DNA of 32,000 bases from positions 2,408,718 through 2,440,717 of the forward strand of contig NZ_CP017476.1 of the NCBI RefSeq assembly GCF_001761385.1, written 5' to 3'. This document shows, one piece after another, positions 823 through 16,109 of the stretch. Within the stretch, counting starts at the first letter, position 1, and every line of letters begins with the position of its first letter. The notes under the pieces are model-generated. The model was not told the origin of the DNA, ran no database searches, and saw only the letters and a list, made by a program, of their open reading frames with translations. A program made the position numbers and the translations under genes. This stretch comes from Hydrogenophaga crassostreae (GTDB lineage Bacteria; Pseudomonadota; Gammaproteobacteria; Burkholderiales; Burkholderiaceae_C).

Positions 823-2154
823 ATGCTTCTCTATCTGGTGATCTTCATTGAAGGCCTTTGCTCTTTGGGAGCAGAGGTCATCGCTTTGCGCCGCCTGGTG
901 CCCCACATGGGCAGCTCCATCTTGGTCACAGCGCCGACCATTGGCTTCTTCTTGCTTGCACTTGCGCTGGGTTATGCCAGTGGCGCAAAGGTCGAGCACG
1001 ACTTTTCTCGGGTGGTGGGCCGCAACTTTGTCGTGGCCGCCCTGATTGCCGGTGTGGGCCTGTCTGGGGCGGCGACATCGGCCTTGTTCGAGGTGATTCG
1101 ACCAGCGATGTTGGCATACCTGGTCTACATGCTTGTGGTCCTGTGTCCCATCGCGTGGTTGCTCGGTCAAACCGTGCCGATCCTGACAAACCTTTTCCGC
1201 CATGAACGTGTGGGTCAGGCGAGTGGCACGGCCTTGTACTGGTCCACCCTGGGCTCGTTCCTTGGGGCCACCGGTCTTTCATTGCTCGTGATGCAGTGGT
1301 TTGGCGTGTCAGCTGCGGTGATGCTGGTGTCCTTGGGCTTGGCGCTAGGCTCCATGCTCCTCACCTTGAACCGCAAATCATGGCTGTTGGCCAACTTGCT
1401 GGTGATGGCCGCGGTGGTCTGGATCAACCAACCTATGGTCGGCGTACTGGCTGATACGGCCTATGCCGAATACAAGGTGGAACCCTATGGGGACCGTCCG
1501 AACGCACGTCTTTTCAAGGTGAATCAGTCAGGCGCTTCGTTGGTTGAAGAGACCCAGCCTCCGCGATTCGCGCCCTACATTCACTACGTTCGAACCATGT
1601 TGTTGGGAGATCTTGCTTTGCAAGGCAAGGACATCCTGGTATTGGGTGCGGGCGGATTCACTTTGTCGCACTTTGAGCCGCTCAACCGATACACCTATGT
1701 TGACATCGACCCGGCAATTCGCGGCATTGCTGAAGCACATTTGCTGCGAGGTCGAATCAATGGTCAGTTTGTTGCAGGCGACGCGCGCAACTTTGTAGAC
1801 ACGACTGAGCAACGGTATTCCGCGATCGTGGTTGATGTCTTCAGCTCACACAACTCCATCCCTGGCCATTTAGCGACACGAGAGTTCTGGGCGGCGCTCC
1901 GAAGGCCCATGCTACCGGGCGCTGTGCTGGTGGCCAATCTGATCCTGGATGGCCGTTTGGAGTCACCCTATGCGCGCAACCTGTTGGCCACCATCGAGAG
2001 TGTTTACGGTCGGTGTTCGGTTGAGGTGATGGCGAAAGACAAACCACTCAGCAATGTGATCGTGGCTTGCTTTCAAAGCAGCGAACCTCGGGCCGAAACC
2101 GTCTACGTGGACGAGCGCAATCAAGCTGATCTTGACCGCGCTCTGAACATGTAG
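823..2154 (+). CDS. polytopic membrane protein fused to a spermidine-synthase-like (class I SAM/dcSAM-binding) domain
   Basis: The N-terminal ~200 aa form about 6-7 hydrophobic helices (LCSLGAEVIALRRL..., TIGFFLLALALGYASG...). The C-terminal half has ILVLGAGGFTLS (GxGxG), YVDIDPAI, GDARNF and VVDVFS, the motif order of the spermidine synthase/aminopropyltransferase fold. Confidence 0.7.
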   Translation: MLLYLVIFIEGLCSLGAEVIALRRLVPHMGSSILVTAPTIGFFLLALALGYASGAKVEHDFSRVVGRNFVVAALIAGVGLSGAATSALFEVIRPAMLAYLVYMLVVLCPIAWLLGQTVPILTNLFRHERVGQASGTALYWSTLGSFLGATGLSLLVMQWFGVSAAVMLVSLGLALGSMLLTLNRKSWLLANLLVMAAVVWINQPMVGVLADTAYAEYKVEPYGDRPNARLFKVNQSGASLVEETQPPRFAPYIHYVRTMLLGDLALQGKDILVLGAGGFTLSHFEPLNRYTYVDIDPAIRGIAEAHLLRGRINGQFVAGDARNFVDTTEQRYSAIVVDVFSSHNSIPGHLATREFWAALRRPMLPGAVLVANLILDGRLESPYARNLLATIESVYGRCSVEVMAKDKPLSNVIVACFQSSEPRAETVYVDERNQADLDRALNM

Positions 2155-2267: not shown

Positions 2268-2295
2268 CATCAAGATAAGGGTAGTTATCTTGATG
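2268..2295. promoter_or_regulatory. perfect 11-bp inverted repeat overlapping the recombinase start codon
   Basis: CATCAAGATAA-gggtag-TTATCTTGATG. The right arm contains TTG 2290 and ATG 2293, and the loop/left arm carries the only purine-rich SD-like stretch (AAGGG). Confidence 0.4.
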
Positions 2296-4248
2296 ATTGA
2301 TTTCACATCAGCCCACCAACGGCCTGGTCGGCCCCTCGGCAAGGCCGTGGTGACCCGTGAGCAAGGGCTTTGCCTGCACGACATCTCGCTCATGCGCGCG
2401 GTCGCCCAGGGCGTCGATGCGAGGGCCGCAGCGGATCGCTACTTACCCGAAGTGCATGCCGATGAGAGGGTGATCCAGAGCTACTTGCGCCGGATCTCGC
2501 GTGAAGCAGCTCAGCTGGTGGCCGACATGGGTGATGTGTCCGCTTCGGAGGCTTTGCTGAAGCGATGCGATCCAAAGCCCGTGGCTCAAGTGCAGGTGGT
2601 GATGCCGTCCCTGGAACAATTCGCCGAAGAAGAGGGGATTGAGGACTTCAGCGAAGCGGAAATCATCGCGCTGTACAAGGAACGATTCGCAGAACAGGCC
2701 AAGCCTGGCGTTCGGGCGGTGGCCAGCCAACAGGAATTGAACCTGGCCCTTCGGGGGTTGGCCACCGTGCAAAGCAAGGGCATGACCTTGCCGCAGCCAC
2801 TCGATCCCGTATTGCGCTGGTTCAGTGAAGGCCTGTCAGCCCAATTGAGGGGGCAGGGCGTCTTTGTGTTGCACGACCTGATTCAGGTCATCAACACCCA
2901 TGGCAAACATTGGTACAAGACGTTTCCCGGCGTGGGCAAAGACCGGGCGCGCCGCCTGGTGGGCTGGCTGGTTGAGCATGAGGAATATCTGCAGGCTTCG
3001 GTGATTCCACGGTGCCGTTGGGACAAGCAGCCTCCGACATCGGGTGGGGTCGTGTCCGTTCAAACACCCTCTCCTGACCTTATTGGCCAGGCGCTGGCCA
3101 CGGTGGGAGGGTTCTCGTTGCGCGCGGATGGCCCAAATGCGATGGCGGCAGGATCTGACGCCGAGGCCGTGAGCAGCTGGCTGGAGGCCATGAGTTTCAA
3201 ATCGGAGAATACTCGCACGGCCTATATCCGCGACGTGCACAGGTTGATGTTGTGGGCGCGTGAGCAGGGCAAAACACTGTCAGGCCTCACCGTATCGGAT
3301 GCGGCTGCGCACGCGCGCTTTCTGGGCAATCCCCCAGCCCATTGGATGAGTGCGCTGCCGGCGCGGCGTGACACCTTGGACTGGAAACCCATGCGAGGCC
3401 CTTTGTCGGCATCGAGCGCCGCGCGGGCGCTGACCGCAATCGGCCATTTGTTCAGCTTTCTGGTGGAAACCGGCTACCTGGTGGCCAATCCGTTTTCTCA
3501 CATCCGAAAAGTAAGGCCAACCGGACCATTGATCGACACCAGACGGTCCTTGACGTCTCGGGAGGTTCAGCATCTGGTGAGCGTCATTCAAGGCTTGCCA
3601 GAGGACGCCACCAAGCGCCGCCTGGTGGCCTTGCTGATGCTATTAGAGTCCACAGGCCTGCGGATTGGCGAGGTTGCTCGCACCTGGGGCGATCTGGTGG
3701 CCGCACAGGGTGCGCAGTTGGACGAAGAGACCGATTCACAAACCCACTATCTGCGGGTGGTGGGCAAGGGCGAGCGTGAGCGTTTCATACCGCTTCGACA
3801 AGCTGTGATTGATGCGCTGGAGGCCCATCGACGGGATCGGCGGGCCTTGGTTCAGGCTGGCTTGATTCCCGATCTCCCGCAGATCGAGGAGCCCTTGATT
3901 TCCGTGCTGGAGAAACCCGTGCAGGCTGCGCTGGCCAGCGCATCTGGTGCGTTGTCGCCGGCAGGTCTTCACAGGCTGATCAAGGCCGTTTTTAAGCAGG
4001 CTGCAGATGCCAGCTCAGAGACAGACATGCGCGAGACCTTTGAACACGCCACCTGCCATTGGCTGCGTCACACGTTCGCACACACGGTACTGAAGGCTTC
4101 GGGCAAGGATCTGCCCGTGACACAGCAGCTGCTGGGTCACGGGTCGATCTCAACCACGGGCATCTACATCAAGGCGGATATGTCAGACCGTGTGCGGGCA
4201 ATCAATGCCATGCCTGATCCTTTCGCAAAGAGCCCGACCACTGGCTGA
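2293..4248 (+). CDS. large tyrosine recombinase / phage-integrase-family site-specific recombinase with a long N-terminal extension
   Basis: C-terminal catalytic motifs are ESTGLRIGEV (Arg I), HWLRHTFAHT (H-x-x-R) and LLGHGSISTTGIYIKAD (His and the nucleophile Tyr). The ~300-aa N-terminal region is not recognised. The ATG at 2293 is preferred over the in-frame TTG at 2290. Confidence 0.9.
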   Translation: MIDFTSAHQRPGRPLGKAVVTREQGLCLHDISLMRAVAQGVDARAAADRYLPEVHADERVIQSYLRRISREAAQLVADMGDVSASEALLKRCDPKPVAQVQVVMPSLEQFAEEEGIEDFSEAEIIALYKERFAEQAKPGVRAVASQQELNLALRGLATVQSKGMTLPQPLDPVLRWFSEGLSAQLRGQGVFVLHDLIQVINTHGKHWYKTFPGVGKDRARRLVGWLVEHEEYLQASVIPRCRWDKQPPTSGGVVSVQTPSPDLIGQALATVGGFSLRADGPNAMAAGSDAEAVSSWLEAMSFKSENTRTAYIRDVHRLMLWAREQGKTLSGLTVSDAAAHARFLGNPPAHWMSALPARRDTLDWKPMRGPLSASSAARALTAIGHLFSFLVETGYLVANPFSHIRKVRPTGPLIDTRRSLTSREVQHLVSVIQGLPEDATKRRLVALLMLLESTGLRIGEVARTWGDLVAAQGAQLDEETDSQTHYLRVVGKGERERFIPLRQAVIDALEAHRRDRRALVQAGLIPDLPQIEEPLISVLEKPVQAALASASGALSPAGLHRLIKAVFKQAADASSETDMRETFEHATCHWLRHTFAHTVLKASGKDLPVTQQLLGHGSISTTGIYIKADMSDRVRAINAMPDPFAKSPTTG

Positions 4249-7205: not shown

Positions 7206-7568
7206 TCGGCAACATCTTTGTCTGCCCAACCAAGATTCCAATGCGAAAAACTCAATGGACTCACTTCGTTTCGCTCTCACTTGCGGCCGCTGCTGAGCTG
7301 GGCACGCCAAAGGCATCTTAAATGCTAATGCTCAAGCAGTCGAAATGAAGGTCAGGAGTGGAGAAGAACGTAGACCCGCAATGCAGCGATTGCGACCCTT
7401 GGTATTCGGCGGCCCAACTTACTGACGGCGTAAAGCAGTCTTAGCAACCGGCGAACGTGTGCCGTGTCAGGCTTGGCAGTTCGGGCACAGCCGCGTCGGG
7501 CTGAGCGCCAAGTCAAACTTGAAGCGCCATATCTGACGTGAAAGGACCAAGCTCACCGTGGAGCGAGC

Positions 7569-10544
7569 TCAGGCCTCTGGAGCGGGCATAGTGGGAGCCA
7601 CCTCCTCAGCCAGTTCATCGAGTACGGCAAACACCCCATCGAGATCGTCGCGATAGAAAGCCGTGTAGCCAGGCATAAAGACGCATCGCCCGTTGTGTTG
7701 GAGTTCGAGCCCCCGAATGTGATCGCGATGATGCAGCCAGAAGTTCCCCATCGCCTTCGGATTCAGCCCACCTGGCAGCCCTGACTTGGTCGCGACATAG
7801 CCCTCTTCATCTCGACCCGTGTGAAAAGGGCTGCTCAAGTGGGCGAGGCAATGATCGAGGAACAGCAGCACGTTATCGCCCTTGACTGCGGGACTAAAGC
7901 AGAAGCCAAAGATGTACTCGTTCATCAACTTGGATATGCCACCGCAATCCTCAGCCCCGCTTTCGTCGTAATAGCCACATCCGACGCCAGAGCCATTCGG
8001 GGGCAGCGCATTGCTGAGCTGATAGATCACGAACGACGCGGCGAAGGAGCGCGCAGCTGCAACTCGACGGGCGATCGTGGTGTCGCCGTTCTCGGAACTG
8101 GGGTCCAGCGACGCCTGCTCATGAAGATGTGCAAAGGCTTGACCGAGAAACGCATCCACGGGTACGTCATATGCTTCAGCGATGAAGTTTCGTCCAGCGT
8201 CTATGTAGCCGCGTTTGAAGTGCGCGAAAACGCGCTGAGAGAGCTTCCTCATCCCCAGCAACGCCAGCTGGCGGACCAAGCCGGACGTCGGAGCCGACAT
8301 GTCCTGGTCGACTATGAGTGCTGTGTGCAGGTTGTACAACTGGCCACCGCGATCTGCCGAGCACTGCAACCGGAACAGCATGAGATCGTTCCAGCCCAGC
8401 ACGCCGCGGTCTGTGCTTGCAAGCTGCTCCAGCAGGCCTTTTCCAACGAAGTCTTTCTCGCCAAAGATTCTCCACGCGACCTCTTTAACATTTTCCGAAG
8501 TATTTGTCCGTCGTCGGCCAGACGTCCGTCCCCAGCCAGCGCGATCCAACAGCCGCAACAACGAGTAAATCGACCTCGGCCGCAGGCCCCGATCATCGTT
8601 GTCGAACGACGAATAAAGAGGCACGAACTTAACGAGCGTTTCAATGGCGTCTTCGGCGGTCACACCAGTGAAGTCGTAGGCCTGATTGACCAGTACTCGC
8701 CAGAACTGGTCGTGTGCGTTCTCTGTTCGCTCCAACAAAAAGTCAGCCTCTGTGAGTACCGAAGCAATGGGTTGCCCCTTGCGAACTCGATCAACGGCAG
8801 TTTGGTAGAGAACAAAGGTCTCTTGCGGCTCCGGCGTCCCGAAGCGCACGATGAGCTTCAGGTAGCTCTCCAGGTTTCTGGTGTTGCCCTTGTTGAAGCA
8901 CGCGCGTGACCGAAGGACCGACTCTTCAACATTGCGCCCGTCACCTAGCTCCAAGACCTCCACATCAAACAACTCTTCCAGCAAAAACTTGGCAGCCCCT
9001 TGGTTCTCCTCCTTAACCTGTGCAAAGCCATGGGCGTTCTTGAACTCTGGATCGTCGTACTCCCGGTTGATTGAGAAGGTACCACTTCGCCCCTCTGTCT
9101 CCTCGGCGTAAATGCGCCTGAACAACCCGGGATAGTTCAGATGCAGCAGCATCAGGTTAATTAGGTCACGCTTGTCGAAGTCGGTACGTCCCAGGTTAGT
9201 TTTCTCAATCTGCATGAGAAGAATCGCATTGATGAAGCGCTTGACCTTGCGCAGATCGCCGACCAAAGGCTGGTACTTTGCAGCAGAGTCGCCATCCAGA
9301 ATAGTCGCAAGCTCATTGAGAACGGCACCAAGCTTGACCATCGTATCTGAAGGCACTGAGCCGAGCTGACTTTCTGCGCGTTCCCAGTCACGCCGCAGAA
9401 AGTTGCTGATCCTGGAGCTGTCCACGAACAAGCTCAGTTTGACTGTCACAAACTTCTCAAGGAACTCACGTGCTCTGAATCCTTCCTCCTTGCCGCCGGC
9501 CAGTACCTCGGTGTCATAGCAAAGGACGTAGGTTGCTTGTGACAGCTTGAATGTGCGCCGAGTTGCGAACAGGACGTTGTTGACGGTTTTAGCATCCAAG
9601 CGATCTAAGTCGTCGATGACAACAATCACTCGTCGACCAATGCGACGAAGGACCTCATCAATGTCATCAAGCAGCTCATCGACAGTTTCCTGTGACGGCT
9701 CCAGTGAAAGCTTGAAGCCCAGGAACGACATGTCCGCCTTCCCCTTGATGAGTCGAGAGTATCGGGATGCCGCTGGACGGAACTCCGGTGCAAAGACCTT
9801 GCTCTGAATCGCAGCAGAAAGGTCGCGAATCAATCGATCGGAAAGATCTGGCTCAGACGCATATCGCAGAGGCTCAAACCGACAAACGATCACCTTGTCC
9901 GCAGCTCGTTCCCAGTAGCGCTCAGCAAGATTGATGAAGCTGGTCTTACCCACACCCCACGGGCCATCGACACCAAACACCAATCCCGAATGCGCCCCGC
10001 TTGCAAGGACCGTCTCTGCGAACGACTTTGCTTGGGTCTCGTTCGAGAGCAGATCGTCGTTCTCGCATCTGATCTCTTCGTCCGAAAGGAAACGGAGTTG
10101 CGAAGGAGTCTGCTGCCTCCTTGGCCAATGGCGCTGGACTAGCGGTGACAAAAGCACAGTGCAGAACAGCAAAAGAGCAACTGGCGCCCAATACGGGTCA
10201 GACGCTTTCAATGCTGCGTGGAACTCAGAAAGCCAAGGCATGGCCAACTCGTTTGACCAAGCTCCCAAGCACGTTGCGATGAATAGGTCGAGACGAAGGC
10301 TTCGACCCACTTGTACCGCAGAAATATGCGCACCACGATTGACGGCGTAAACCACACAGACCGCCAGTCCGATGAGAACCAGAATAACCCTTGTCCAAAG
10401 GGAAAGGTCGGCTATCGCAGGAGTAAACGCAGTTCCCAGGTAGTAGGTTGCCCTGTAGACCTCTGCGGCCACCAAGCCAACAACAAACATCTTGGCAAAG
10501 ACCAAGAGTTCGGGCATCTTCATCGTGCTTTTGGTAGCCGCCAT
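7569..10544 (-). CDS. membrane-anchored KAP-family P-loop NTPase (991 aa); architecture resembles the Tmn-type defence NTPase
   Basis: About four N-terminal hydrophobic helices (about aa 12-138). Walker A GVDGPWGVGKTS (9939-9974), Walker B VVVIDDLDRLD (about 9594-9626) and the KAP-typical LRKVKRFINAILL motif. The ~520-aa C-terminal region has no recognised motif. RBS GGGAGG is upstream. Confidence 0.85.
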   Translation of the reverse strand: MAATKSTMKMPELLVFAKMFVVGLVAAEVYRATYYLGTAFTPAIADLSLWTRVILVLIGLAVCVVYAVNRGAHISAVQVGRSLRLDLFIATCLGAWSNELAMPWLSEFHAALKASDPYWAPVALLLFCTVLLSPLVQRHWPRRQQTPSQLRFLSDEEIRCENDDLLSNETQAKSFAETVLASGAHSGLVFGVDGPWGVGKTSFINLAERYWERAADKVIVCRFEPLRYASEPDLSDRLIRDLSAAIQSKVFAPEFRPAASRYSRLIKGKADMSFLGFKLSLEPSQETVDELLDDIDEVLRRIGRRVIVVIDDLDRLDAKTVNNVLFATRRTFKLSQATYVLCYDTEVLAGGKEEGFRAREFLEKFVTVKLSLFVDSSRISNFLRRDWERAESQLGSVPSDTMVKLGAVLNELATILDGDSAAKYQPLVGDLRKVKRFINAILLMQIEKTNLGRTDFDKRDLINLMLLHLNYPGLFRRIYAEETEGRSGTFSINREYDDPEFKNAHGFAQVKEENQGAAKFLLEELFDVEVLELGDGRNVEESVLRSRACFNKGNTRNLESYLKLIVRFGTPEPQETFVLYQTAVDRVRKGQPIASVLTEADFLLERTENAHDQFWRVLVNQAYDFTGVTAEDAIETLVKFVPLYSSFDNDDRGLRPRSIYSLLRLLDRAGWGRTSGRRRTNTSENVKEVAWRIFGEKDFVGKGLLEQLASTDRGVLGWNDLMLFRLQCSADRGGQLYNLHTALIVDQDMSAPTSGLVRQLALLGMRKLSQRVFAHFKRGYIDAGRNFIAEAYDVPVDAFLGQAFAHLHEQASLDPSSENGDTTIARRVAAARSFAASFVIYQLSNALPPNGSGVGCGYYDESGAEDCGGISKLMNEYIFGFCFSPAVKGDNVLLFLDHCLAHLSSPFHTGRDEEGYVATKSGLPGGLNPKAMGNFWLHHRDHIRGLELQHNGRCVFMPGYTAFYRDDLDGVFAVLDELAEEVAPTMPAPEA

Positions 10545-11119
10545 TCACCATTCCTCCCTGTTAGGCGTGAGCGCCGTATACGTGTGCCGATTTGCGGGGC
10601 TTGCAGGCGCGCCTGGGCATCCTGCGCCGTCCGGAAGTTTATCTGCGGGGCGACGCTGGCACAGATCTGCCAGGTGACATGGTCCTGCGGCGCGAATACG
10701 CCCGTAAGAGACGCGCCCTACATGATGTCGGTCCCCGGGCCCGCGCCAATTCAGATTGCTCCTCTCGGGTGTTCAGGGCGGAAGGTCGGTTCTCCGTTCG
10801 AAATGCCGAGGCGGCAGAGTTGGCCTGCTGCGACTCCGAAGCCACTTACCGCTTGCAGCGATAGTAGCCCCTGCCTGGCCTAACCGAGAAGGTTCGCTCC
10901 CAGCCTGAGGTGGCCTTCGAACTTTCATTCTCGGCTTTGCAGCGGGAGCCGACCACCACCAATCCAATGGCGTTTTCCGGCAGCAGTTATTCCGTGGCGA
11001 AGCTGTAGCCCTGGACCAAGGCTAACCTGAGGAAGGTCTGTTCATGGATGACGCTCGGACTCTGATTTAGGTGCTCAGAGTTCAGGTGGAAGAATAGGGG
11101 CTACAAATAGGAGAACAGC

Positions 11120-13966
11120 ATGAGCCAAACTTGGCCATATTCCGGCGCACGCTGGTGGAAGTTCGATTTCCATACACACACACCGGCATCCAAAGACACG
11201 GGAGCTTGGCAGGCGGCCATTGGTACGCCCTCTGAGCTGACGCCACAAACCTGGTTGCTCAAATATATGGCCGCCGAAATCGACTGTGTGGCTGTCACCG
11301 ACCACAACACGGGCGATTGGATCGACAAGATCAAGGTCGCCTATGCCGAGATGAAGGCCGAGGCCGATGCAGGCACACAGTGCGCCGGTTTCCGTGAGCT
11401 ACACGTCTTCCCTGGAGTAGAAATTTCCGTACAAGGTGGCATTCACCTGCTTGCGATATTCGACCCGTCTGCCACCAGCCAGACCATCGACGGCCTGCTG
11501 GCGAGGGTGGAATACGAGGGAACGCGGGGTGACAGCGATGGCGTTACCCGCGAAGGGGCCAGCAAGGTGGTGGAGCGCATTCTCGCGGCGGGAGGCCTTG
11601 CCATCCCGGCACACGTCGAGGGAGAAAAGGGGTTGTTACAGGTCAAGCCTGGCACACACAAATGCTTGTTGGACGCCACAACGGTCAAGCAGGTCTTGCA
11701 AGAGTCGGGCCTCCTGGCGCTGGAGTGGACTGCTTACACCAGCCCTAAGCCGACGGTACTAGACGAATTGAAACTGCGTTTCGCCAGCGTAGTCGGAAGT
11801 GATTGTCACAGCTTCCGAGGTGCGGCTGTTCCTGGCTCGCGCTACACCTGGATCAAGATGGCCCAGCCTAGCCTGGAAGGCTTGCGCCTTGCACTGCTGG
11901 ATGGGCAGGAGGTCTCGGTAAAGCGTAGCGACGAGAGCAGTGGCTTTACGCCGTTCAACACGCCAGAGCATTTCATTGAGTCGATTGAAATCCGTGACGC
12001 GCGCTATATGGGGCGCGGCAGGCAGGCAGACAGCTTGCCGCTCAACCCGTACTTCAATGCCTTCATCGGTGGACGTGGCACCGGCAAATCGACCATCGTG
12101 CATGCCCTGCGCCTGGCCTATCGGCGCGAGAAAGAGTTGTCGCCCAGCTCGGAGGCAGGGCAGACCTTCAGCCGCTTCTGCAAAGTCGCCAAGAGCCGAA
12201 ACGATGAAGGCGGAATCCAAGCGGAGACAGCCATCTGCGTACGAGTGCAGCGGGATGGAACGTCCCATCGGCTGATCTGGCGACACGACGGTCAAGGCCA
12301 TGCGGTGGAGGAATGGGATACAGCCACTGGCAGCTTCGCGCCCTCGACCAGCCAAGCAGTCACCGCGCAGAGATTTCCAGTGCGGCTGTTCAGCCAGGGG
12401 CAGATCGCGGCACTGGCGGGCGACAGCCAGCAGGCCCTGTTGAAGGTAATAGACGATGCAGCGGACACGCAGTCACAGCAGACGGCCTTTGACGAAGCCA
12501 AGCGTGCATTCCTGGCCGCTCGGGCGCAAATTCGGGAGCTTGATGGCAAGCTGCAAAAAAGCGAAGCGCTGACGCTTGCCCTGCAAGACGTTCAGCGTAA
12601 GCTGGCCCGCTTCGAAGGCGCCGACCATGCTGTGGTGCTGAAAAACTACCAACATACTAGCCGGCAAAGCCTCGAATTAGAGCGCCAGCTCGATGCCGCC
12701 GCTGATTTGTCAGCGCGCCTGAAAGCGTTTGCGGCCGCCCTGCTGGCGGAAGATTTGCCACAAGGGCTGTGTGATACCGGCGAGGACGGCGAGGCGCTGA
12801 GCGTTGTCCAAGCGCTGCACGCAGCCATCACCAAAGCGCGGCAGGAGGTCGAGAACACCGCCGCCGCGCTGCATGAGTGCGGACGAGTCCTGCGCAACGA
12901 GTTGGAGGCCTCACCCACGTTTGTGCGGATCGGCGAGGCAAAGGCGGCCTATGAAAAACTGAAAGCCGACCTGCAGCAACAAGGGGTCAGCGACCCAAGT
13001 GAGTATGGCCGTCTGGTGCAAGAAAAGCAGCAGCTCGAAACCGAGCTGAAGAAGCTTGAGGCCTTACAGACGCAGCAAATAGAGTTACGCGACAAGGCAA
13101 AAGCACTGCTAGAGCAGGTGAGGTCCGCTCGTCGCGCCATCAGTGCCCAACGGAGTGGATTTCTTCAGGAAACGCTGCAAGGCAATCCGTTTGTTCGGAT
13201 CGCGCTAATCCCATACAGTCGGGATGCGCAGGGCATTGAACGCTCCTTGCGGGAGCTTCTTGGCGCTGCTGATGGCAGGTACGTGGACGATCTCTATCAG
13301 GAGCAAGAAGGGGGGTCACCCAAAGGGCTTCTGGCTGATCTGCTGGTCACGGTTGATCTGTTCGAGCAGCCGGGCGCGTGGGACACCGCAGCATTTGAGC
13401 AGGCGCTACTGACTCAGAAGAAGCGCCTGTCAAACGCCTGTCGCGGCCAGGCTGAATTTGGAGGCTGGTTCAATAAGTTCTTAAAAGCGGAAGCCGACAA
13501 ACGCCCTGAGTTCATCGATCACATCTTGTGCTGGTTCCCCGAAGACGGATTGCAGGTGGAATACAGCCGCAAGGGAGACGGACGGGACTTTCAGTCCATA
13601 GGTCAAGCGTCCGCCGGTCAGCGCGCGGCCGCGATGCTCGCTTTCTTGCTGGCGCACGGAAACGAGCCGCTCGTGCTTGATCAGCCTGAAGATGACTTGG
13701 ACAACCACCTAATCTACGGACTAGTGGTTCAGCAGATACGCAGCAACAAGCTGCGTCGTCAGCTAATCGTCGTGACCCACAACCCCAACATCGTGGTCAA
13801 TGGGGATGCGGAGCTGATTCACGTACTGGACTTCAACCACCAGTGTCATGTGAAGCAAACCGGCTCCTTGCAGGACCAAGCAATGCGCCGCGAGGTCTGT
13901 CAGGTGATGGAGGGGGGCGAAGAAGCGTTTGAGCGGCGCTATCAGCGTCTGGGAAGAGATGTTTGA
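11120..13966 (+). CDS. PHP-domain phosphoesterase fused to an ABC/SMC-type ATPase with a coiled-coil insert (948 aa); architecture resembles the Ppl-type defence protein
   Basis: PHP ligand motifs are FDFHTHTP (H18/H20 at 11171-11179), VAVTDHN, PGVEIS, GIHLLAIF, PAHVEGE and GSDCHS. ATPase motifs are Walker A GGRGTGKST (12068-12094), Q-loop LFSQGQI, signature SAGQRAA (13610-13630), Walker B LVLDQPEDDLD (13670-13702) and H-loop VVTHNPN. An Ala/Leu/Gln/Glu-rich helical segment spans about aa 450-700. RBS AGGAG lies 7 nt upstream. Confidence 0.9.
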   Translation: MSQTWPYSGARWWKFDFHTHTPASKDTGAWQAAIGTPSELTPQTWLLKYMAAEIDCVAVTDHNTGDWIDKIKVAYAEMKAEADAGTQCAGFRELHVFPGVEISVQGGIHLLAIFDPSATSQTIDGLLARVEYEGTRGDSDGVTREGASKVVERILAAGGLAIPAHVEGEKGLLQVKPGTHKCLLDATTVKQVLQESGLLALEWTAYTSPKPTVLDELKLRFASVVGSDCHSFRGAAVPGSRYTWIKMAQPSLEGLRLALLDGQEVSVKRSDESSGFTPFNTPEHFIESIEIRDARYMGRGRQADSLPLNPYFNAFIGGRGTGKSTIVHALRLAYRREKELSPSSEAGQTFSRFCKVAKSRNDEGGIQAETAICVRVQRDGTSHRLIWRHDGQGHAVEEWDTATGSFAPSTSQAVTAQRFPVRLFSQGQIAALAGDSQQALLKVIDDAADTQSQQTAFDEAKRAFLAARAQIRELDGKLQKSEALTLALQDVQRKLARFEGADHAVVLKNYQHTSRQSLELERQLDAAADLSARLKAFAAALLAEDLPQGLCDTGEDGEALSVVQALHAAITKARQEVENTAAALHECGRVLRNELEASPTFVRIGEAKAAYEKLKADLQQQGVSDPSEYGRLVQEKQQLETELKKLEALQTQQIELRDKAKALLEQVRSARRAISAQRSGFLQETLQGNPFVRIALIPYSRDAQGIERSLRELLGAADGRYVDDLYQEQEGGSPKGLLADLLVTVDLFEQPGAWDTAAFEQALLTQKKRLSNACRGQAEFGGWFNKFLKAEADKRPEFIDHILCWFPEDGLQVEYSRKGDGRDFQSIGQASAGQRAAAMLAFLLAHGNEPLVLDQPEDDLDNHLIYGLVVQQIRSNKLRRQLIVVTHNPNIVVNGDAELIHVLDFNHQCHVKQTGSLQDQAMRREVCQVMEGGEEAFERRYQRLGRDV

Positions 13967-14406
13967 GGCTCGGCGAAGCTGCCAATGCGGACAGTGGCCA
14001 ATGTCTGCTTACAGCCTTGAAGCGACTTTCGAATTTCTAGTTTCGGCTCTGCAGCGATTACTGCCGCTGGGTGCAGCCATACGGGTTCCAGCTGCCTGCC
14101 AAGAAGCAGCTGTTGGGCACGGCGACTGGTGCTGTCCCGAGTGGCGGCTGTACGGGGTACTGCGGTCTTTGGGCATCCGCGACACGGTTGGTGCAGCGCC
14201 ACTGACCGCTTCCTCATCACCTGGCCTGCTGGTATCGACCCGTTGCGGTCCACCAGCATGTCGAAAAGCAGTCTTTCGCGGTGACAGGTCCTCAAGGCAA
14301 CTTTGCTGCGATGTTCAACTTCCAAACCAAGCCGAAATACCTTGAAGCCCTCCACTGACGTGTCTGGGAGAGGACGAGGAGCACGTCAAAGTATCCAGCG
14401 TCGACC

Positions 14407-15726
14407 TCATCGCCTCGGATTCGGCCAACGCAGATGGTGGTCATCGATCACAAAAGGGTGCGAATGGTGTCCACCTTGCTCGGTGGAACCCGCGCCATGG
14501 GGGTGTCCCGCTGGCAGATCAGGGTGTTCGTGCTCAATGGACTCAGGATCCTGTGGCGACCAAACCAGTGTGGCCACCCAGACGGCCAATGCCGCAGCAC
14601 TGCCCAAAACAGCAAAGGTCACCGGCATGCCGAAACGGGCCCCCAACCAGCCGGCCAGCGGATAGAACAACAACCAGCAGGCATGCGACAGCGCAAACTG
14701 AGCGGCAAACAGCGCAGGACGATCCTCTGGATTTGAAGAGCGACGCAACAAGCGCCCTGAGGGCGTCTGCGCGGTCGAATATCCCAAACCGAGAGCCAAC
14801 CACAAGACCATGAGCGAGGCATGCCCGACCACCAAGGTGCCCGCGAACATGCCCACGACCATCAACGCTATGCCAAATAGCATCACGCGCCGATCGGACA
14901 GTTTTTCCAGAAGACTGGGCAAGGCCAGCGCCGCCACCATGGAGCCGGCTCCGAAGCTGGCCAAGGCCAGAGCCACCGCGCTCTGGGTCAAACCGAATTT
15001 CCCCTGCACGATGACCACCGTGTTGACAAAAACCATGGAGCCTGCCGCTGCAACCGCCGCATTCACGGCCAACAGTCCGCGCAGCCGAGGTGTGGCGAGG
15101 TAAATTCGCAGGCCGCGTGTGGTTCGGTCGTAAATGCTGCGACTCTTTGGAGCTGGATGAACGGGCAAAACCACCGAGACCACCAACACGGCAGAAGCCA
15201 AGAACCCAACCACCGTGCCCGCGAACAGATCGTGAAAGCCGATCACCGTCAGCAACGCAGCAGCCAGCATCGGGCTGACAAGGCTTTCCATGTCGTACGC
15301 AAGGCGTGAGAGCGACAAAGCCTTGGTGTAGTCCGCCTCTTCCGGAAGGACATCGGGGATGGTGGCCTGAAAGGTGGGCGTGAAAGCAGCCGACGCGGCT
15401 TGCAACACAAAAATCAACACGTAGATTTCCCAGATCTGGGAAACAAATGGCAGCAGCAAGGCAACAGCCGCCCGGACCAGGTCCAGCGTCACCAGCATGG
15501 TGCGTCTGGGCAGGCGCTCGGCAAAGGCTGCTGCGACCGGTGCCACGCCGACGTAGGCAATCATCTTGATGGCCAATGCCGTTCCCAGAACCATCCCTGC
15601 GTTGTCGCCCGCCAAATCAAAGGCCAATAGCCCCAGTGCAACGGTCGCCAGACCGGTCCCGATCAAAGCAATCACCTGAGCGGCGAATAAGTGACGGTAG
15701 GTGCGGTTGGAAAGAATGGCCAGCAT
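14407..15726 (-). CDS. MFS transporter with a His-rich C-terminal tail; NreB-like putative Ni/Co exporter
   Basis: About 12 TM segments with an MFS_3/EntS-like N-terminus (MLAILSNRTYRHLFAAQVIALIGTGLA). The cytoplasmic tail is IEHEHPDLPAGHPHGAGSTEQGGHHSHPFVIDDHH. It lies 45 nt downstream of a CsoR/RcnR-family gene. Confidence 0.8.
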   Translation of the reverse strand: MLAILSNRTYRHLFAAQVIALIGTGLATVALGLLAFDLAGDNAGMVLGTALAIKMIAYVGVAPVAAAFAERLPRRTMLVTLDLVRAAVALLLPFVSQIWEIYVLIFVLQAASAAFTPTFQATIPDVLPEEADYTKALSLSRLAYDMESLVSPMLAAALLTVIGFHDLFAGTVVGFLASAVLVVSVVLPVHPAPKSRSIYDRTTRGLRIYLATPRLRGLLAVNAAVAAAGSMVFVNTVVIVQGKFGLTQSAVALALASFGAGSMVAALALPSLLEKLSDRRVMLFGIALMVVGMFAGTLVVGHASLMVLWLALGLGYSTAQTPSGRLLRRSSNPEDRPALFAAQFALSHACWLLFYPLAGWLGARFGMPVTFAVLGSAAALAVWVATLVWSPQDPESIEHEHPDLPAGHPHGAGSTEQGGHHSHPFVIDDHHLRWPNPRR

Positions 15727-15771
15727 GTTTTAGTTCAATGGATCAGCGGTCGGTATGCAAGAGGCAACAAC

Positions 15772-16050
15772 TCACAGGTACCGAGTGATTTCCTTGAACT
15801 CCTCCATGGAGTGCTGCTGCTCTCCAGCAAGGGGCCCCACGAGATGCTCAAGGCAGTGGTCCAAATGGTCCTGGATCAGCGCTTTCTTGGCTTGCTGAAC
15901 AGCCTTCTCGACAGCCTGTAACTGCTGAGCGATATCCAGACAGGGGCGGCCCTCCACCAACATCGCTATCGTGCTGTTCAGATGCCCATTCGCCCTCTTT
16001 AGGCGCTTGATGACGGCGGGGTGTGAATCGTGAATGTGCGGAAGTGTCAT
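15772..16050 (-). CDS. CsoR/RcnR (DUF156) family metal-sensing transcriptional repressor
   Basis: 92 aa with VIKRLKRANGHLNSTIAMLVEGRPCLDIAQQLQAVEKAVQQAKKALIQDHLDHCLEH. The ligand fingerprint is C37/H62/C66 (x-C-H-C), with extra His at positions 5, 7, 10 and 65. Confidence 0.85.
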   Translation of the reverse strand: MTLPHIHDSHPAVIKRLKRANGHLNSTIAMLVEGRPCLDIAQQLQAVEKAVQQAKKALIQDHLDHCLEHLVGPLAGEQQHSMEEFKEITRYL

Positions 16051-16059
16051 GGACGTTAT

Positions 16060-16084
16060 TATCCCCCCAAGGGGATACTATAAT
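16060..16084. promoter_or_regulatory. C/G-tract palindromic operator (CsoR/RcnR type) abutting a TATAAT -10 box
   Basis: TATCCCC-CCAA-GGGGATA (16060-16077) has perfect 7-bp arms and lies 10 nt upstream of the repressor ATG. TATAAT at 16079-16084 faces the + strand operon, and its complement region reads TATAGT for the - strand. Confidence 0.6.
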
Positions 16085-16109
16085 CACCCGACTCACCCAA
16101 GAAAACCTC

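What the first reader, a model, noticed from the sequence alone, without database searches (positions are those of the whole stretch)
7569..13966. Head-to-head pair of giant NTPases (TM-anchored KAP NTPase and PHP-phosphoesterase/ABC-SMC ATPase): candidate defence module in ICE cargo
Two ~2.9-kb genes are transcribed divergently from a single 575-bp spacer. The left gene (7569..10544) encodes a membrane-anchored KAP P-loop NTPase. The right gene (11120..13966) encodes a complete PHP metal-dependent phosphoesterase fused to an ABC/SMC-type ATPase with a coiled-coil insert. Neither fits conjugation, metabolism or the neighbouring metal-resistance genes, and both sit in the cargo slot of a mobile element. 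From memory, the two architectures correspond to the single-gene systems named Tmn (transmembrane KAP NTPase) and Ppl (PHP-like phosphoesterase plus ATPase) in the 2020 Gao et al. defence screen. To my knowledge the two have not been described as a fixed divergent pair sharing one control region. That arrangement raises the question of whether they cooperate (a membrane-associated sensor or pore plus a nucleic-acid-degrading ATPase) or are simply stacked in a defence islet.
Basis: partly seen in the sequence, partly recalled or inferred. Interest (0 to 1): 0.8.

Follow-up and report, generated by a model that had tools for sequence, protein, structure and literature searches.

The report
Two stacked single-gene defence cassettes
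The two large divergent genes are real and defence-like, but they are two independently mobile single-gene cassettes (a membrane KAP NTPase and a Ppl-like nuclease-ATPase) that landed side by side in a variable cargo slot of a conjugative element, not a conserved two-gene system.

Summary
ORFs 7569..10544(-) and 11120..13966(+) diverge from a 575-bp spacer in Hydrogenophaga crassostreae.

**Right gene.** It is a full-length Ppl-like PHP-nuclease/ABC-ATPase. It passes NCBIfam's "TrlF family" cutoff, gives PADLOC Ppl E 2e-137, and falls below NCBIfam's Ppl equivalog cutoff.

**Left gene.** It is a KAP P-loop NTPase with N-terminal TM helices and an α-solenoid C-terminal half of about 540 aa. It is not Tmn: there is no profile hit, and the TM helices are not inserted in the P-loop. 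Its nearest defence relative is PifA, by a partial match.

**The pairing is fortuitous.**
- 0 of 79 KAP-family loci from different species have a Ppl/TrlF gene within 10 kb.
- TrlF/Ppl-like genes are on 1153 plasmids, and KAP-family genes on only 6.
- KAP copies at 87–92% identity and TrlF copies at 85–92% identity all sit in unrelated contexts without the partner.
- The spacer is two abutted private 5' flanks: about 360 bp travel with KAP and 186 bp with TrlF.

Both genes lie in a variable cargo hotspot (7394..19624) of an ICE backbone. Relatives carry other cargo in that slot.

One unexplained extra: direct copies of an ~85-nt element punctuate the cassettes.

The parts
7569..10544 (-). KAP-family P-loop NTPase gene (991 aa). 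It has an N-terminal TM bundle, a KAP NTPase domain and an α-helical C-terminal half.
   Evidence: ORF. Pfam PF07693 gives 186.7 bits. The full-length family is conserved down to about 28% identity. AF2 model.
10131..10523 (-). Region encoding the N-terminal membrane segment (aa 8-138), with 3-4 hydrophobic helices, all upstream of Walker A.
   Evidence: Kyte-Doolittle windows >=1.5 occur at aa 8-32, 40-74 and 117-138 only. The AF2 model shows helices H10-44, H49-69, H85-100 and H119-139.
9216..10040 (-). KAP P-loop NTPase domain (aa 169-443), with Walker A GPWGVGKT at aa 194-201 and Walker B IVVIDD at aa 307-312.
   Evidence: G197, G199, K200, D311, D312 and R315 are invariant in the family alignment. 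The best fold matches are the RdrA (RADAR) ring ATPase and ORC/Cdc6, at low TM-scores.
7572..9194 (-). C-terminal region (aa 451-991): an all-α, solenoid-like domain with no recognisable enzymatic fold. It is conserved together with the NTPase domain across the family.
   Evidence: The domain-only AF2 model has pLDDT 81.5 and pTM 0.72. Foldseek against the PDB gives a best E of 0.016, to armadillo/HEAT repeats only. Many columns are invariant.
10545..10905 (.). Non-coding 5' flank that travels with the KAP gene; it forms the left part of the 575-bp spacer.
   Evidence: DNA homology to solo KAP loci reaches 10705/10710 (Delftia, Variovorax), 10857 (Zoogloea), 10893 (C. guangdongensis) and 10905 (L102). 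Frame-breaking indels show it is non-coding.
10934..11119 (.). 5' flank that travels with the TrlF/Ppl-like gene; it forms the right part of the spacer.
   Evidence: Homology to solo TrlF loci starts at 10934/10939 (L017, L018-21, L175/176) and at 10888 in L174.
11120..13966 (+). TrlF-family (Ppl-like) gene (948 aa). It combines an N-terminal PHP phosphoesterase with an ABC/SMC-type ATPase that has a coiled-coil insert.
   Evidence: PADLOC Ppl E 2e-137. NCBIfam TrlF 648.7 bits against a cutoff of 350; Ppl_antiphage 529 bits against a cutoff of 1000. Motifs.
7377..7394 (+). Left edge of the cargo hotspot and of the KAP cassette: the palindromic-arm site CGCAAT-GCAGCG-ATTGCG. The ICE backbone and the KAP cassette share the 11 bp GCAGCGATTGC.
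   Evidence: Backbone homology to L106 ends at 7393. KAP-cassette homology starts at 7383/7384 in three unrelated contexts.
10872..10954 (+). Copy 1 of an ~85-nt boundary element, lying between the KAP and TrlF cassettes.
   Evidence: nhmmer profile E 8e-18. Alignment.
13980..14066 (+). Copy 2 of the boundary element, immediately after the TrlF cassette.
   Evidence: nhmmer E 7.5e-16. TrlF-cassette homology ends at 14017-14029.
19702..19795 (+). Copy 3 of the boundary element (diverged), in the ICE backbone at the right edge of the hotspot.
   Evidence: nhmmer E 1e-13. The homologous backbone copy is in L106 at 7241-7335. Backbone homology resumes at 19625.
7394..19624 (.). Variable cargo segment of the ICE hotspot between the SNF2 helicase and the DUF3577/STY4534 gene. 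It holds KAP, TrlF, a Ni/Co-type module (MFS, RcnR-like, HupE/UreJ) and a ThsB-like TIR gene.
   Evidence: Comparison with 69 SNF2-anchored related loci. The gap is 1-6 kb elsewhere with different cargo. Annotation.

Best explanation
Two autonomous single-gene anti-phage-type cassettes were captured independently and happen to be neighbours. They lie in the variable cargo hotspot (window 7394..19624) of an integrative conjugative element of Hydrogenophaga crassostreae. Each gene brings its own 5' regulatory flank, so the 575-bp 'shared' spacer is two private upstream regions abutted back to back.

Gene 2 (TrlF family) is a close sister of Ppl. By homology it is most likely a PHP-domain 3'-5' ssDNA exonuclease controlled by its ABC ATPase. 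As described for E. coli Ppl, bound NTPs would keep it off, and phage-induced nucleotide depletion plus free 3'-OH DNA ends would release it. This mechanism is inferred; only the motifs are shown.

Gene 1 is a member of a large, uncharacterised KAP-NTPase family. I infer that its α-solenoid C-terminal half is the sensing or partner-binding surface. The P-loop would act as an NTP-driven switch or oligomerisation module of RdrA/STAND type. The N-terminal 3-4 TM helices would anchor the protein in the inner membrane and possibly act as the effector, perturbing the membrane or draining ATP as reported for PifA and Tmn. It would do this on its own, without Ppl/TrlF.
For: (1) KAP side.
- A scan of one genome per species with a family alignment gave 79 loci, 59 of them full-length and 49 with >=4 kb upstream.
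- None has a Ppl/TrlF homologue within 10 kb (tblastn E<=1e-5), and no other neighbour recurs.
- Close KAP copies sit alone among unrelated genes: Delftia 87%, Zoogloea 89%, metagenome 92% and a B. glumae plasmid 53%.

(2) TrlF side.
- TrlF/Ppl-like genes are on 1153 plasmid records, against 6 for the KAP family.
- TrlF copies at 78-92% identity occur in seven unrelated contexts, never with KAP:
  - after an MmeI-like methylase;
  - between unrelated genes, with a MetX-like gene downstream;
  - in another ICE;
  - directly after gyrB;
  - after hsdR in a type I R-M island;
  - after a helicase plus an N6-methylase on E. coli IncF plasmids;
  - after TauD genes in Pseudomonas.

(3) Spacer.
- KAP-linked DNA homology covers 7383..10905.
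- TrlF-linked homology covers 10888/10934..14023.

(4) Hotspot.
- In 69 related elements the SNF2-to-DUF3577 gap is 1-6 kb with other cargo, such as a methylase plus ResIII helicase pair (type III R-M-like) or a transporter plus dehydrogenase.
- None carries KAP or TrlF.

(5) Identities and literature.
- Profile identities come, and motifs.
- The E. coli Ppl mechanism is summarised in PMC12904381.
- KAP NTPases fused to unknown C-terminal regions act as single-gene defences in PMC13552941.
Against: - No experiment shows that either gene defends against phage in this host.
- TrlF scores below NCBIfam's Ppl equivalog cutoff, so the Ppl mechanism is transferred from a sister family.
- The KAP mechanism is inferred from architecture alone. 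The full-length model has only moderate confidence (pLDDT 72, pTM 0.46).
- TM helices were called by hydropathy only.
- Absence of conserved adjacency does not exclude a local functional interaction. Tmn, another KAP NTPase, is reported to synergise with the ABC ATPase of Gabija.
Confidence: 0.85

Rival explanations
1. Facultative synergy. The two genes are autonomous systems, but when co-resident they potentiate each other, for example with the TrlF ABC ATPase enhancing the KAP NTPase. That would give this particular ICE a broader or stronger defence.
For: Wu et al. report that Tmn, a KAP NTPase, synergises with Gabija through the GajA ABC ATPase domain. Here a KAP NTPase sits next to a nuclease-ABC ATPase, and both are intact.
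Against: - The protein is not Tmn.
- There is no co-occurrence signal at all: 0 of 79 KAP loci, 0 of 69 related ICEs, and essentially disjoint plasmid distributions.
- Synergising pairs in that study were found through significant co-occurrence.
Confidence: 0.1
2. Obligate two-gene defence system. A membrane sensor (KAP) and a nuclease-ATPase effector (TrlF/Ppl) are co-regulated from one bidirectional control region.
For: The only support is the divergent arrangement and the complementary domain content in this one genome.
Against: - Every other copy of either gene lacks the partner, including copies at 85-92% identity.
- The spacer is a composite of two private flanks.
- E. coli Ppl works as a single gene.
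Confidence: 0.02
3. Neither gene is a defence gene. They are ICE maintenance or DNA-processing functions, for example SMC-like partition or repair and a membrane NTPase for transfer.
For: Older annotations call the right gene 'chromosome segregation protein SMC'. The genes lie in an ICE next to SSB and an SNF2 helicase.
Against: - Both genes are absent from 69 related ICE backbones, so they are not core ICE functions.
- TrlF matches the Ppl anti-phage profile end to end and is repeatedly embedded in R-M or defence islands.
- KAP relatives (PifA, EF_KAP) are phage-exclusion proteins.
Confidence: 0.03

Closest known systems
Ppl (Gao et al. 2020 single-gene system; NCBIfam NF042955, PADLOC PDLC02208) and its sister 'TrlF family AAA-like ATPase' (NF045780)
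   Same: - The architecture matches end to end: an N-terminal PHP phosphoesterase with HxH/DxH motifs, and an ABC/SMC-type ATPase split by a coiled-coil.
- Profile matches cover the full length.
- It occurs as a single gene with changing neighbours, often in R-M or defence islands.
   Different: - It scores 529 bits on the Ppl equivalog model, below the cutoff of 1000, but passes the TrlF family model. It is therefore a sister-family member, not an orthologue of the tested E. coli Ppl.
- No activity data exist for TrlF-family proteins in the literature I could search.
- The only 'TrlF' found there is an unrelated tropolone-pathway thioesterase.
PifA (F-plasmid T7 exclusion protein) and the recently described class of KAP NTPases fused to C-terminal regions of unknown function (EF_KAP, PMC13552941)
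   Same: - It has a KAP P-loop NTPase core with intact Walker A and B motifs.
- It is membrane-associated.
- It has a large uncharacterised C-terminal region.
- It is a single-gene module on mobile elements.
- PifA is the best PADLOC match (E 6e-33).
   Different: - The PifA match is partial (aa 279-478 against positions 157-346 of 720).
- The C-terminal 540 aa form their own family-specific α-solenoid with no match in the PDB.
- There are 3-4 N-terminal TM helices, whereas EF_KAP has one N-terminal helix and one inside the domain.
Tmn (Gao et al. 2020)
   Same: It is a membrane-anchored P-loop NTPase of the KAP/YobI-like assemblage and a single-gene defence candidate.
   Different: - No Tmn profile hit appears even at E<=10.
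- Tmn's two TM helices are inserted inside the P-loop domain after Walker A. Here all TM segments precede Walker A.
- This protein also has a 540-aa C-terminal domain.
RdrA of RADAR (PDB 8hr8)
   Same: It is the best structural match of the full-length model (Foldseek E 1e-5). Both are large defence ATPases with a helical C-terminal extension, and RdrA forms rings.
   Different: - TM-scores are only 0.23-0.27 and identity is 12%.
- No RdrB deaminase partner is present.
- RdrA has no TM segment.
Variable-cargo hotspots of ICEs (e.g. SXT/R391 hotspots) and integron cassette arrays
   Same: - The variable DNA sits at a fixed position between conserved backbone genes.
- The cassettes are separated by direct copies of a short element.
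   Different: - The elements show no attC-like hairpin.
- No integron integrase is present.
- Each cassette carries its own 5' flank.
- The recombination mechanism is unknown.

Membership tests
TrlF family AAA-like ATPase (NCBIfam NF045780) | Whole-protein score above the curated cutoff of 350 bits, with an end-to-end match | tested here: met
   648.7 bits, aa 9-945 against profile positions 2-944 of 944.
Ppl (anti-phage protein Ppl) | Full-length match to a Ppl profile | tested here: met
   PADLOC PDLC02208 E 2.3e-137, aa 9-944 against positions 4-892 of 894.
Ppl (anti-phage protein Ppl) | NCBIfam equivalog cutoff of 1000 bits, which signals orthology to the tested protein | tested here: not met
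   529.2 bits against a cutoff of 1000.
Ppl (anti-phage protein Ppl) | N-terminal PHP metal-dependent phosphoesterase motifs plus ABC ATPase Walker A and B | tested here: met
   HxH at aa 18-20, DxH at aa 228-230, Walker A at aa 317-324 and Walker B at aa 851-857. There is a weak CehA/McbA metallohydrolase hit at aa 11-167. No Pfam PHP hit at E<=0.01.
Ppl (anti-phage protein Ppl) | Acts as a single gene with no conserved partner | tested here: met
   Seven different neighbourhoods for copies at 78-92% identity.
Ppl (anti-phage protein Ppl) | Protects against phage; 3'-5' ssDNA exonuclease inhibited by NTPs | not testable with these tools
   Known for E. coli Ppl only from the literature.
Tmn | Match to the Tmn profile in PADLOC | tested here: not met
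   No Tmn hit at E<=10. That PADLOC-DB v2 contains a Tmn model rests on my own knowledge.
Tmn | Two TM helices inserted within the P-loop NTPase domain, after Walker A | tested here: not met
   Hydrophobic segments occur only at aa 8-138. None lies between Walker A (aa 194-201) and Walker B (aa 307-312).
KAP family P-loop NTPase (Pfam PF07693) | Domain match above the gathering score, with intact Walker A and B | tested here: met
   186.7 bits against a cutoff of 20, aa 169-443 against positions 2-288 of 293. Motifs.
KAP family P-loop NTPase (Pfam PF07693) | Classic KAP feature: TM helices inserted in the P-loop domain | tested here: not met
   The TM segments are N-terminal instead.
PifA | Full-length match to the PifA profile | tested here: inconclusive
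   E 5.6e-33, but the best stretch covers only positions 157-346 of 720.
QatA (QatABCD) | NCBIfam equivalog cutoff of 600 bits and QatBCD neighbours | tested here: not met
   44.7 bits, covering only aa 152-229. No Qat genes are nearby.
Conserved two-gene KAP+Ppl system | Adjacency conserved across independent genomes, in both directions | tested here: not met
   0 of 79 KAP loci and 0 of 69 related ICEs. 1153 plasmid records hold TrlF/Ppl-like genes and 6 hold KAP. All 11 neighbourhoods inspected lack the partner.
Conserved two-gene KAP+Ppl system | A single shared control region inherited as a unit | tested here: not met
   The spacer splits into a KAP-linked part (10545-10905) and a TrlF-linked part (10888/10934-11119).
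Integron gene cassette | attC site able to fold into a hairpin; integron integrase nearby | tested here: not met
   Boundary elements fold no better than shuffled sequence (z 0.17 to -0.61). The only recombinase is a DUF3701-type tyrosine recombinase 3 kb away.

The most novel reading that the evidence does not exclude
The adjacency is a by-product of a cassette-capture mechanism not described before. Single-gene defence cassettes, each with its own promoter flank and no recombinase, are inserted one after another at an ~85-nt element in the SNF2-DUF3577 hotspot of this ICE family. This leaves direct copies of the element between cassettes, at 10872-10954, 13980-14066 and 19702-19795. The crossover would occur at a GCAGCG core, as in the palindromic site CGCAAT-GCAGCG-ATTGCG at 7377-7394. 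That would make the hotspot an integron-like assembler of defence genes. A weaker second reading is local KAP-TrlF synergy analogous to Tmn-Gabija.
Probability: 0.15. Interest if true: 0.65.

Novelty: new member of a known kind. Interest (0 to 1): 0.3.

Why it matters
The result is mostly a clean negative. An attractive "sensor plus nuclease" pair turns out to be two independent cassettes, so it should not be counted or cloned as a new two-gene system.

Three smaller positive points follow.
- It defines a large, phylogenetically wide, untested family of KAP NTPases with N-terminal TM helices and a private α-solenoid domain. The family has 234 representatives at E<=1e-30 and reaches Patescibacteria, Paenibacillus and Bacteroidota. 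It behaves as a solo mobile gene and is a good candidate for the newly recognised single-gene KAP defences.
- It shows that TrlF-family Ppl relatives are extremely mobile single-gene cassettes with sharp ends, often lodged inside R-M operons.
- It points to a specific ICE hotspot and a repeated boundary element that may explain how such cassettes are collected.

Tried and rejected
- **Tmn identity for the KAP protein.** Rejected: no profile hit, and the TM topology is wrong.
- **Conserved partner for the KAP family.** All-vs-all clustering of neighbour ORFs in 59 loci found only generic paralogues (histidine kinases, ABC ATPases). Serine recombinases and methylases appeared in one Patescibacteria subclade only.
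- **Small regulatory gene in the spacer.** Rejected: the KAP-linked flank has 4-nt and ~97-nt indels that break every frame.
- **Known RNA or tRNA in the spacer or window.** None found.
- **Sigma-70 promoter scan.** It gave 0 sites against 1.7 expected, which is uninformative.
- **attC-like hairpins at cassette edges.** The edges fold no better than shuffles.
- **Link between cassettes and the DUF3701 tyrosine recombinase.** Such integrases are near KAP or TrlF only in the B. glumae plasmid, out of about 100 loci.
- **The 9-mer TGCAGCGAT and the 'TTTCGG.T.TG' arm as general markers.** Both occur at chance frequency outside this element.
- **Sequence search of the PDB with both proteins.** No hits.
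- **Enzymatic effector fold in the KAP C-terminal half.** None found; only weak armadillo/HEAT resemblance.
- **Origin of the name 'TrlF'.** Not traceable. The only TrlF in the searchable literature is an unrelated PaaY-like thioesterase.


Full report
**1. Observation**

The window is from Hydrogenophaga crassostreae, contig LVWD01000013.1. The right-hand protein is 100% identical to an NCBI protein of that species, and the locus was recovered from GCA_001640105.1. ORFs 7569..10544(-), 991 aa, and 11120..13966(+), 948 aa, exist as described, and 575 bp lie between their start codons.

**2. The right gene**

- PADLOC matches the Ppl model end to end, E 2.3e-137.
- NCBIfam places it in the 'TrlF family AAA-like ATPase' at 648.7 bits against a cutoff of 350.
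- The 'anti-phage protein Ppl' equivalog model scores 529 bits, below its cutoff of 1000.
- The protein has the PHP signatures HxH (aa 18-20) and DxH (aa 228-230).
- It has an ABC ATPase Walker A (aa 317-324) and Walker B (aa 851-857).
- A coiled-coil-like insert spans about aa 430-691, and the SMC_N match is split across aa 287-902.

It is thus a sister-family relative of Ppl with the same architecture. [quoted passage not shown] NTPs bound to both the PHP and NTPase domains inhibit it, and nucleotide depletion plus 3'-OH ends made by phage homing endonucleases activate it (PMC12904381). An earlier preprint found a phage counter-defence gene against it. No sequence relative is in the PDB.

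**3. The left gene**

- Pfam KAP_NTPase covers aa 169-443, E 7e-55.
- Walker A is at aa 194-201 and Walker B at aa 307-312.
- Strongly hydrophobic segments occur only at aa 8-32, 40-74 and 117-138, all before Walker A.
- The best PADLOC match is PifA, and it is partial (E 6e-33). QatA matches are weak.
- No Tmn model appears even at E<=10.

The literature defines Tmn by two TM helices inserted inside the P-loop domain. That feature is absent here, so the Tmn assignment fails.

An exhaustive profile-free search found 8230 relatives at E<=0.001 and 234 at E<=1e-30. Many are about 950-1050 aa long and align from about residue 10 to about residue 980 at 28-60% identity. The N-terminal TM region, KAP domain and ~540-aa C-terminal region therefore form one conserved family. 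It has numerous invariant residues in the C-terminal half.

An AlphaFold2 model of the whole protein has moderate confidence (pLDDT 72, pTM 0.46). Its best PDB fold matches are the ring-forming RADAR ATPase RdrA and then ORC/Cdc6-type ATPases, at low TM-scores. A model of the C-terminal half alone is good (pLDDT 81.5, pTM 0.72). It has no significant structural neighbour and shows only weak armadillo/HEAT-like similarity. No enzymatic effector domain is recognisable.

A 2026 paper shows that KAP NTPases fused to C-terminal regions of unknown function act as single-gene anti-phage proteins. That activity needs both Walker B and the C-terminal region (PMC13552941). This protein fits that class architecturally.

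**4. Is the pair conserved? No.**

*KAP side*
- The Delftia (87% identity), Zoogloea (89%), metagenomic (92%) and B. glumae plasmid (53%) copies all lie among unrelated genes with no Ppl/TrlF.
- A scan of one genome per species with a family alignment returned 79 loci spanning Proteobacteria, Patescibacteria, Paenibacillus, Bacteroidota and others.
- Of these, 59 are full-length and 49 have at least 4 kb upstream.
- tblastn with the window's TrlF protein found no hit in any of them.
- No other neighbour recurs.

*TrlF side*
- tblastn finds relatives on 1153 plasmid records, 55 of them at 80-90% identity and mostly E. coli IncF. The KAP protein matches only 6 records.
- Copies at 78-92% identity occur in these contexts, never with a KAP gene:
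  - after an MmeI-like methylase (L174);
  - between unrelated genes, with a MetX-like gene downstream (L175/176);
  - in an Aquabacterium ICE after an HTH gene (L017);
  - immediately after gyrB (L018-21);
  - after hsdR in a type I R-M island with GmrSD and MksBEF (Vogesella, L103);
  - after a DEAD-box helicase and an N6-methylase on IncF plasmids (L016);
  - after TauD genes in Pseudomonas (L007-12).

**5. The 'shared control region' is a composite**

- DNA homology to solo KAP loci covers window 7383/7384 to 10705-10905, depending on the locus.
- Homology to solo TrlF loci covers 10888 or 10934/10939 to 14017-14029.
- About 360 bp of the spacer therefore belong to the KAP cassette and 186 bp to the TrlF cassette.
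- The KAP-linked flank is conserved as DNA but has frame-breaking indels, so it is non-coding.
- No Rfam family or tRNA is present.

**6. Why are they neighbours?**

Anchoring on the adjacent SNF2 helicase retrieved 69 related loci. They share the backbone orf272 - DUF3701 tyrosine recombinase - SSB - orf103 - SNF2 - [gap] - DUF3577/STY4534 ICE replication protein - C5 methylase. The gap is 1-6 kb in relatives and 13.3 kb here, and none of the relatives carries KAP or TrlF.

The closest relative, L106, is collinear up to window 7393 and again from 19625. Window 7394..19624 is therefore variable cargo. It holds:
- KAP and TrlF;
- an MFS, RcnR-like and HupE/UreJ module;
- a full-length ThsB-type TIR gene, E 4e-123.

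Relatives carry different cargo in the same slot. One has an N6/N4 methylase plus ResIII helicase pair (type III R-M-like). Another has a LysR regulator, an ABC transporter and a 2-hydroxyacid dehydrogenase. The two genes are neighbours because both landed in the same ICE cargo hotspot.

**7. Unexplained extra**

- The hotspot's left edge is the site CGCAAT-GCAGCG-ATTGCG (7377-7394).
- The backbone (as seen in L106) and the KAP cassette (as seen in three unrelated contexts) overlap there by the 11 bp GCAGCGATTGC.
- In the + orientation both cassettes start at GCAGCG and end at CAGCC.
- An ~85-nt element occurs in direct orientation at 10872-10954, 13980-14066 and 19702-19795.
- An nhmmer profile of this element also hits three other places:
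  - the flank of TrlF in L174;
  - the hotspot of an independently fetched related ICE (L115, E 6e-18 after iteration and 9e-8 before);
  - the backbone copy in L106.
- The elements do not fold as hairpins.
- A DUF3701 integrase does not generally accompany the cassettes.
- The short motifs are at chance frequency elsewhere.

This may mark site-specific or short-homology cassette capture, but the motif definitions were post hoc and the mechanism is open.

**8. Verdict**

It is precisely a TrlF-family member, sister to Ppl. The Tmn call is wrong.

Local synergy cannot be excluded, given the reported Tmn-Gabija ABC ATPase synergy, but it has no comparative support. The finding is a new member or combination of known kinds and of modest interest. 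The most interesting residue is the solo, widely distributed KAP family with a private α-solenoid domain, together with the possible cassette-capture element of the ICE hotspot.

Noticed in passing
window 10872-10954, 13980-14066, 19702-19795 (all + strand); L174 554-644; L115 14512-14602; L106 7241-7335: An ~85-nt repeated element (…CCAGCC-TGARGYG-…CTTCGA…TTTCA…CGGCTYTGCAGCG…) lies between the KAP and TrlF cassettes, after TrlF, and in the ICE backbone at the right edge of the hotspot. A profile also finds it in the hotspot of an independently fetched related ICE. It shows no hairpin signal, and its function is unknown.
   Followed up: partly
window 7377-7394: A palindromic-arm site, CGCAAT-GCAGCG-ATTGCG, lies exactly at the left edge of the cargo. 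The ICE backbone (as in L106) and the KAP cassette (as in L101, L102 and L022) overlap by the 11 bp GCAGCGATTGC, as expected for a recombination core. TGCAGCGAT occurs only 3 times in the window (7382, 10854, 14050), all on the + strand and at cassette edges. The motif was chosen post hoc.
   Followed up: partly
window 18717-19442 (+): A full-length ThsB-type TIR protein (PADLOC ThsB E 4e-123) lies in the same cargo segment. No ThsA-like gene was recognised nearby, so it may be an orphan or an unconventional Thoeris component.
   Followed up: partly
L016 (E. coli IncF plasmid pL37-4), L103 (Vogesella), L174: TrlF-family genes are repeatedly the last gene of restriction-modification-like operons. 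They follow a DEAD-box helicase plus N6-methylase, or sit 11 bp after hsdR of a type I system, or follow an MmeI-like methylase. This hints at a functional link with R-M systems rather than with KAP NTPases.
   Followed up: partly
L018-L021 (metagenome), TrlF at L018 10001-12847: A TrlF cassette (88% identity) is inserted directly downstream of dnaA-dnaN-gyrB. It is flanked by the inverted repeat TTTTGTTGCTGCG … CGCAGCAACAAAA, as if inserted into a hairpin or terminator. A 491-aa AAA protein follows it.
   Followed up: no
window 823-2154 (+) versus L105, L111, L115: The fused MFS/spermidine-synthase-like gene lies upstream of the integrase in the window but downstream of the SNF2 helicase in related elements. 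It is therefore also movable cargo, or the elements are rearranged.
   Followed up: no
L051, L054, L057-L063, L074, L092 (Patescibacteria loci): In candidate-phyla-radiation genomes the KAP-family gene (about 33% identity) is often near a large serine recombinase and a DNA methylase. This suggests carriage on a different kind of mobile element.
   Followed up: no
L015 (B. glumae plasmid p76s4p) 2143-3978 and 7381-9204: Two DUF3701-type tyrosine recombinases (28-30% identical to the window's integrase at 2290-4248) lie just upstream of that plasmid's solo KAP gene. This is the only other locus where this recombinase type accompanies a cassette.
   Followed up: partly
window 11120-13966; NCBI annotation: The NCBIfam name 'TrlF family AAA-like ATPase' could not be traced to any paper. 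The only TrlF in the searchable literature is an unrelated PaaY-like thioesterase of tropolone biosynthesis. Older records call these proteins 'chromosome segregation protein SMC'.
   Followed up: yes
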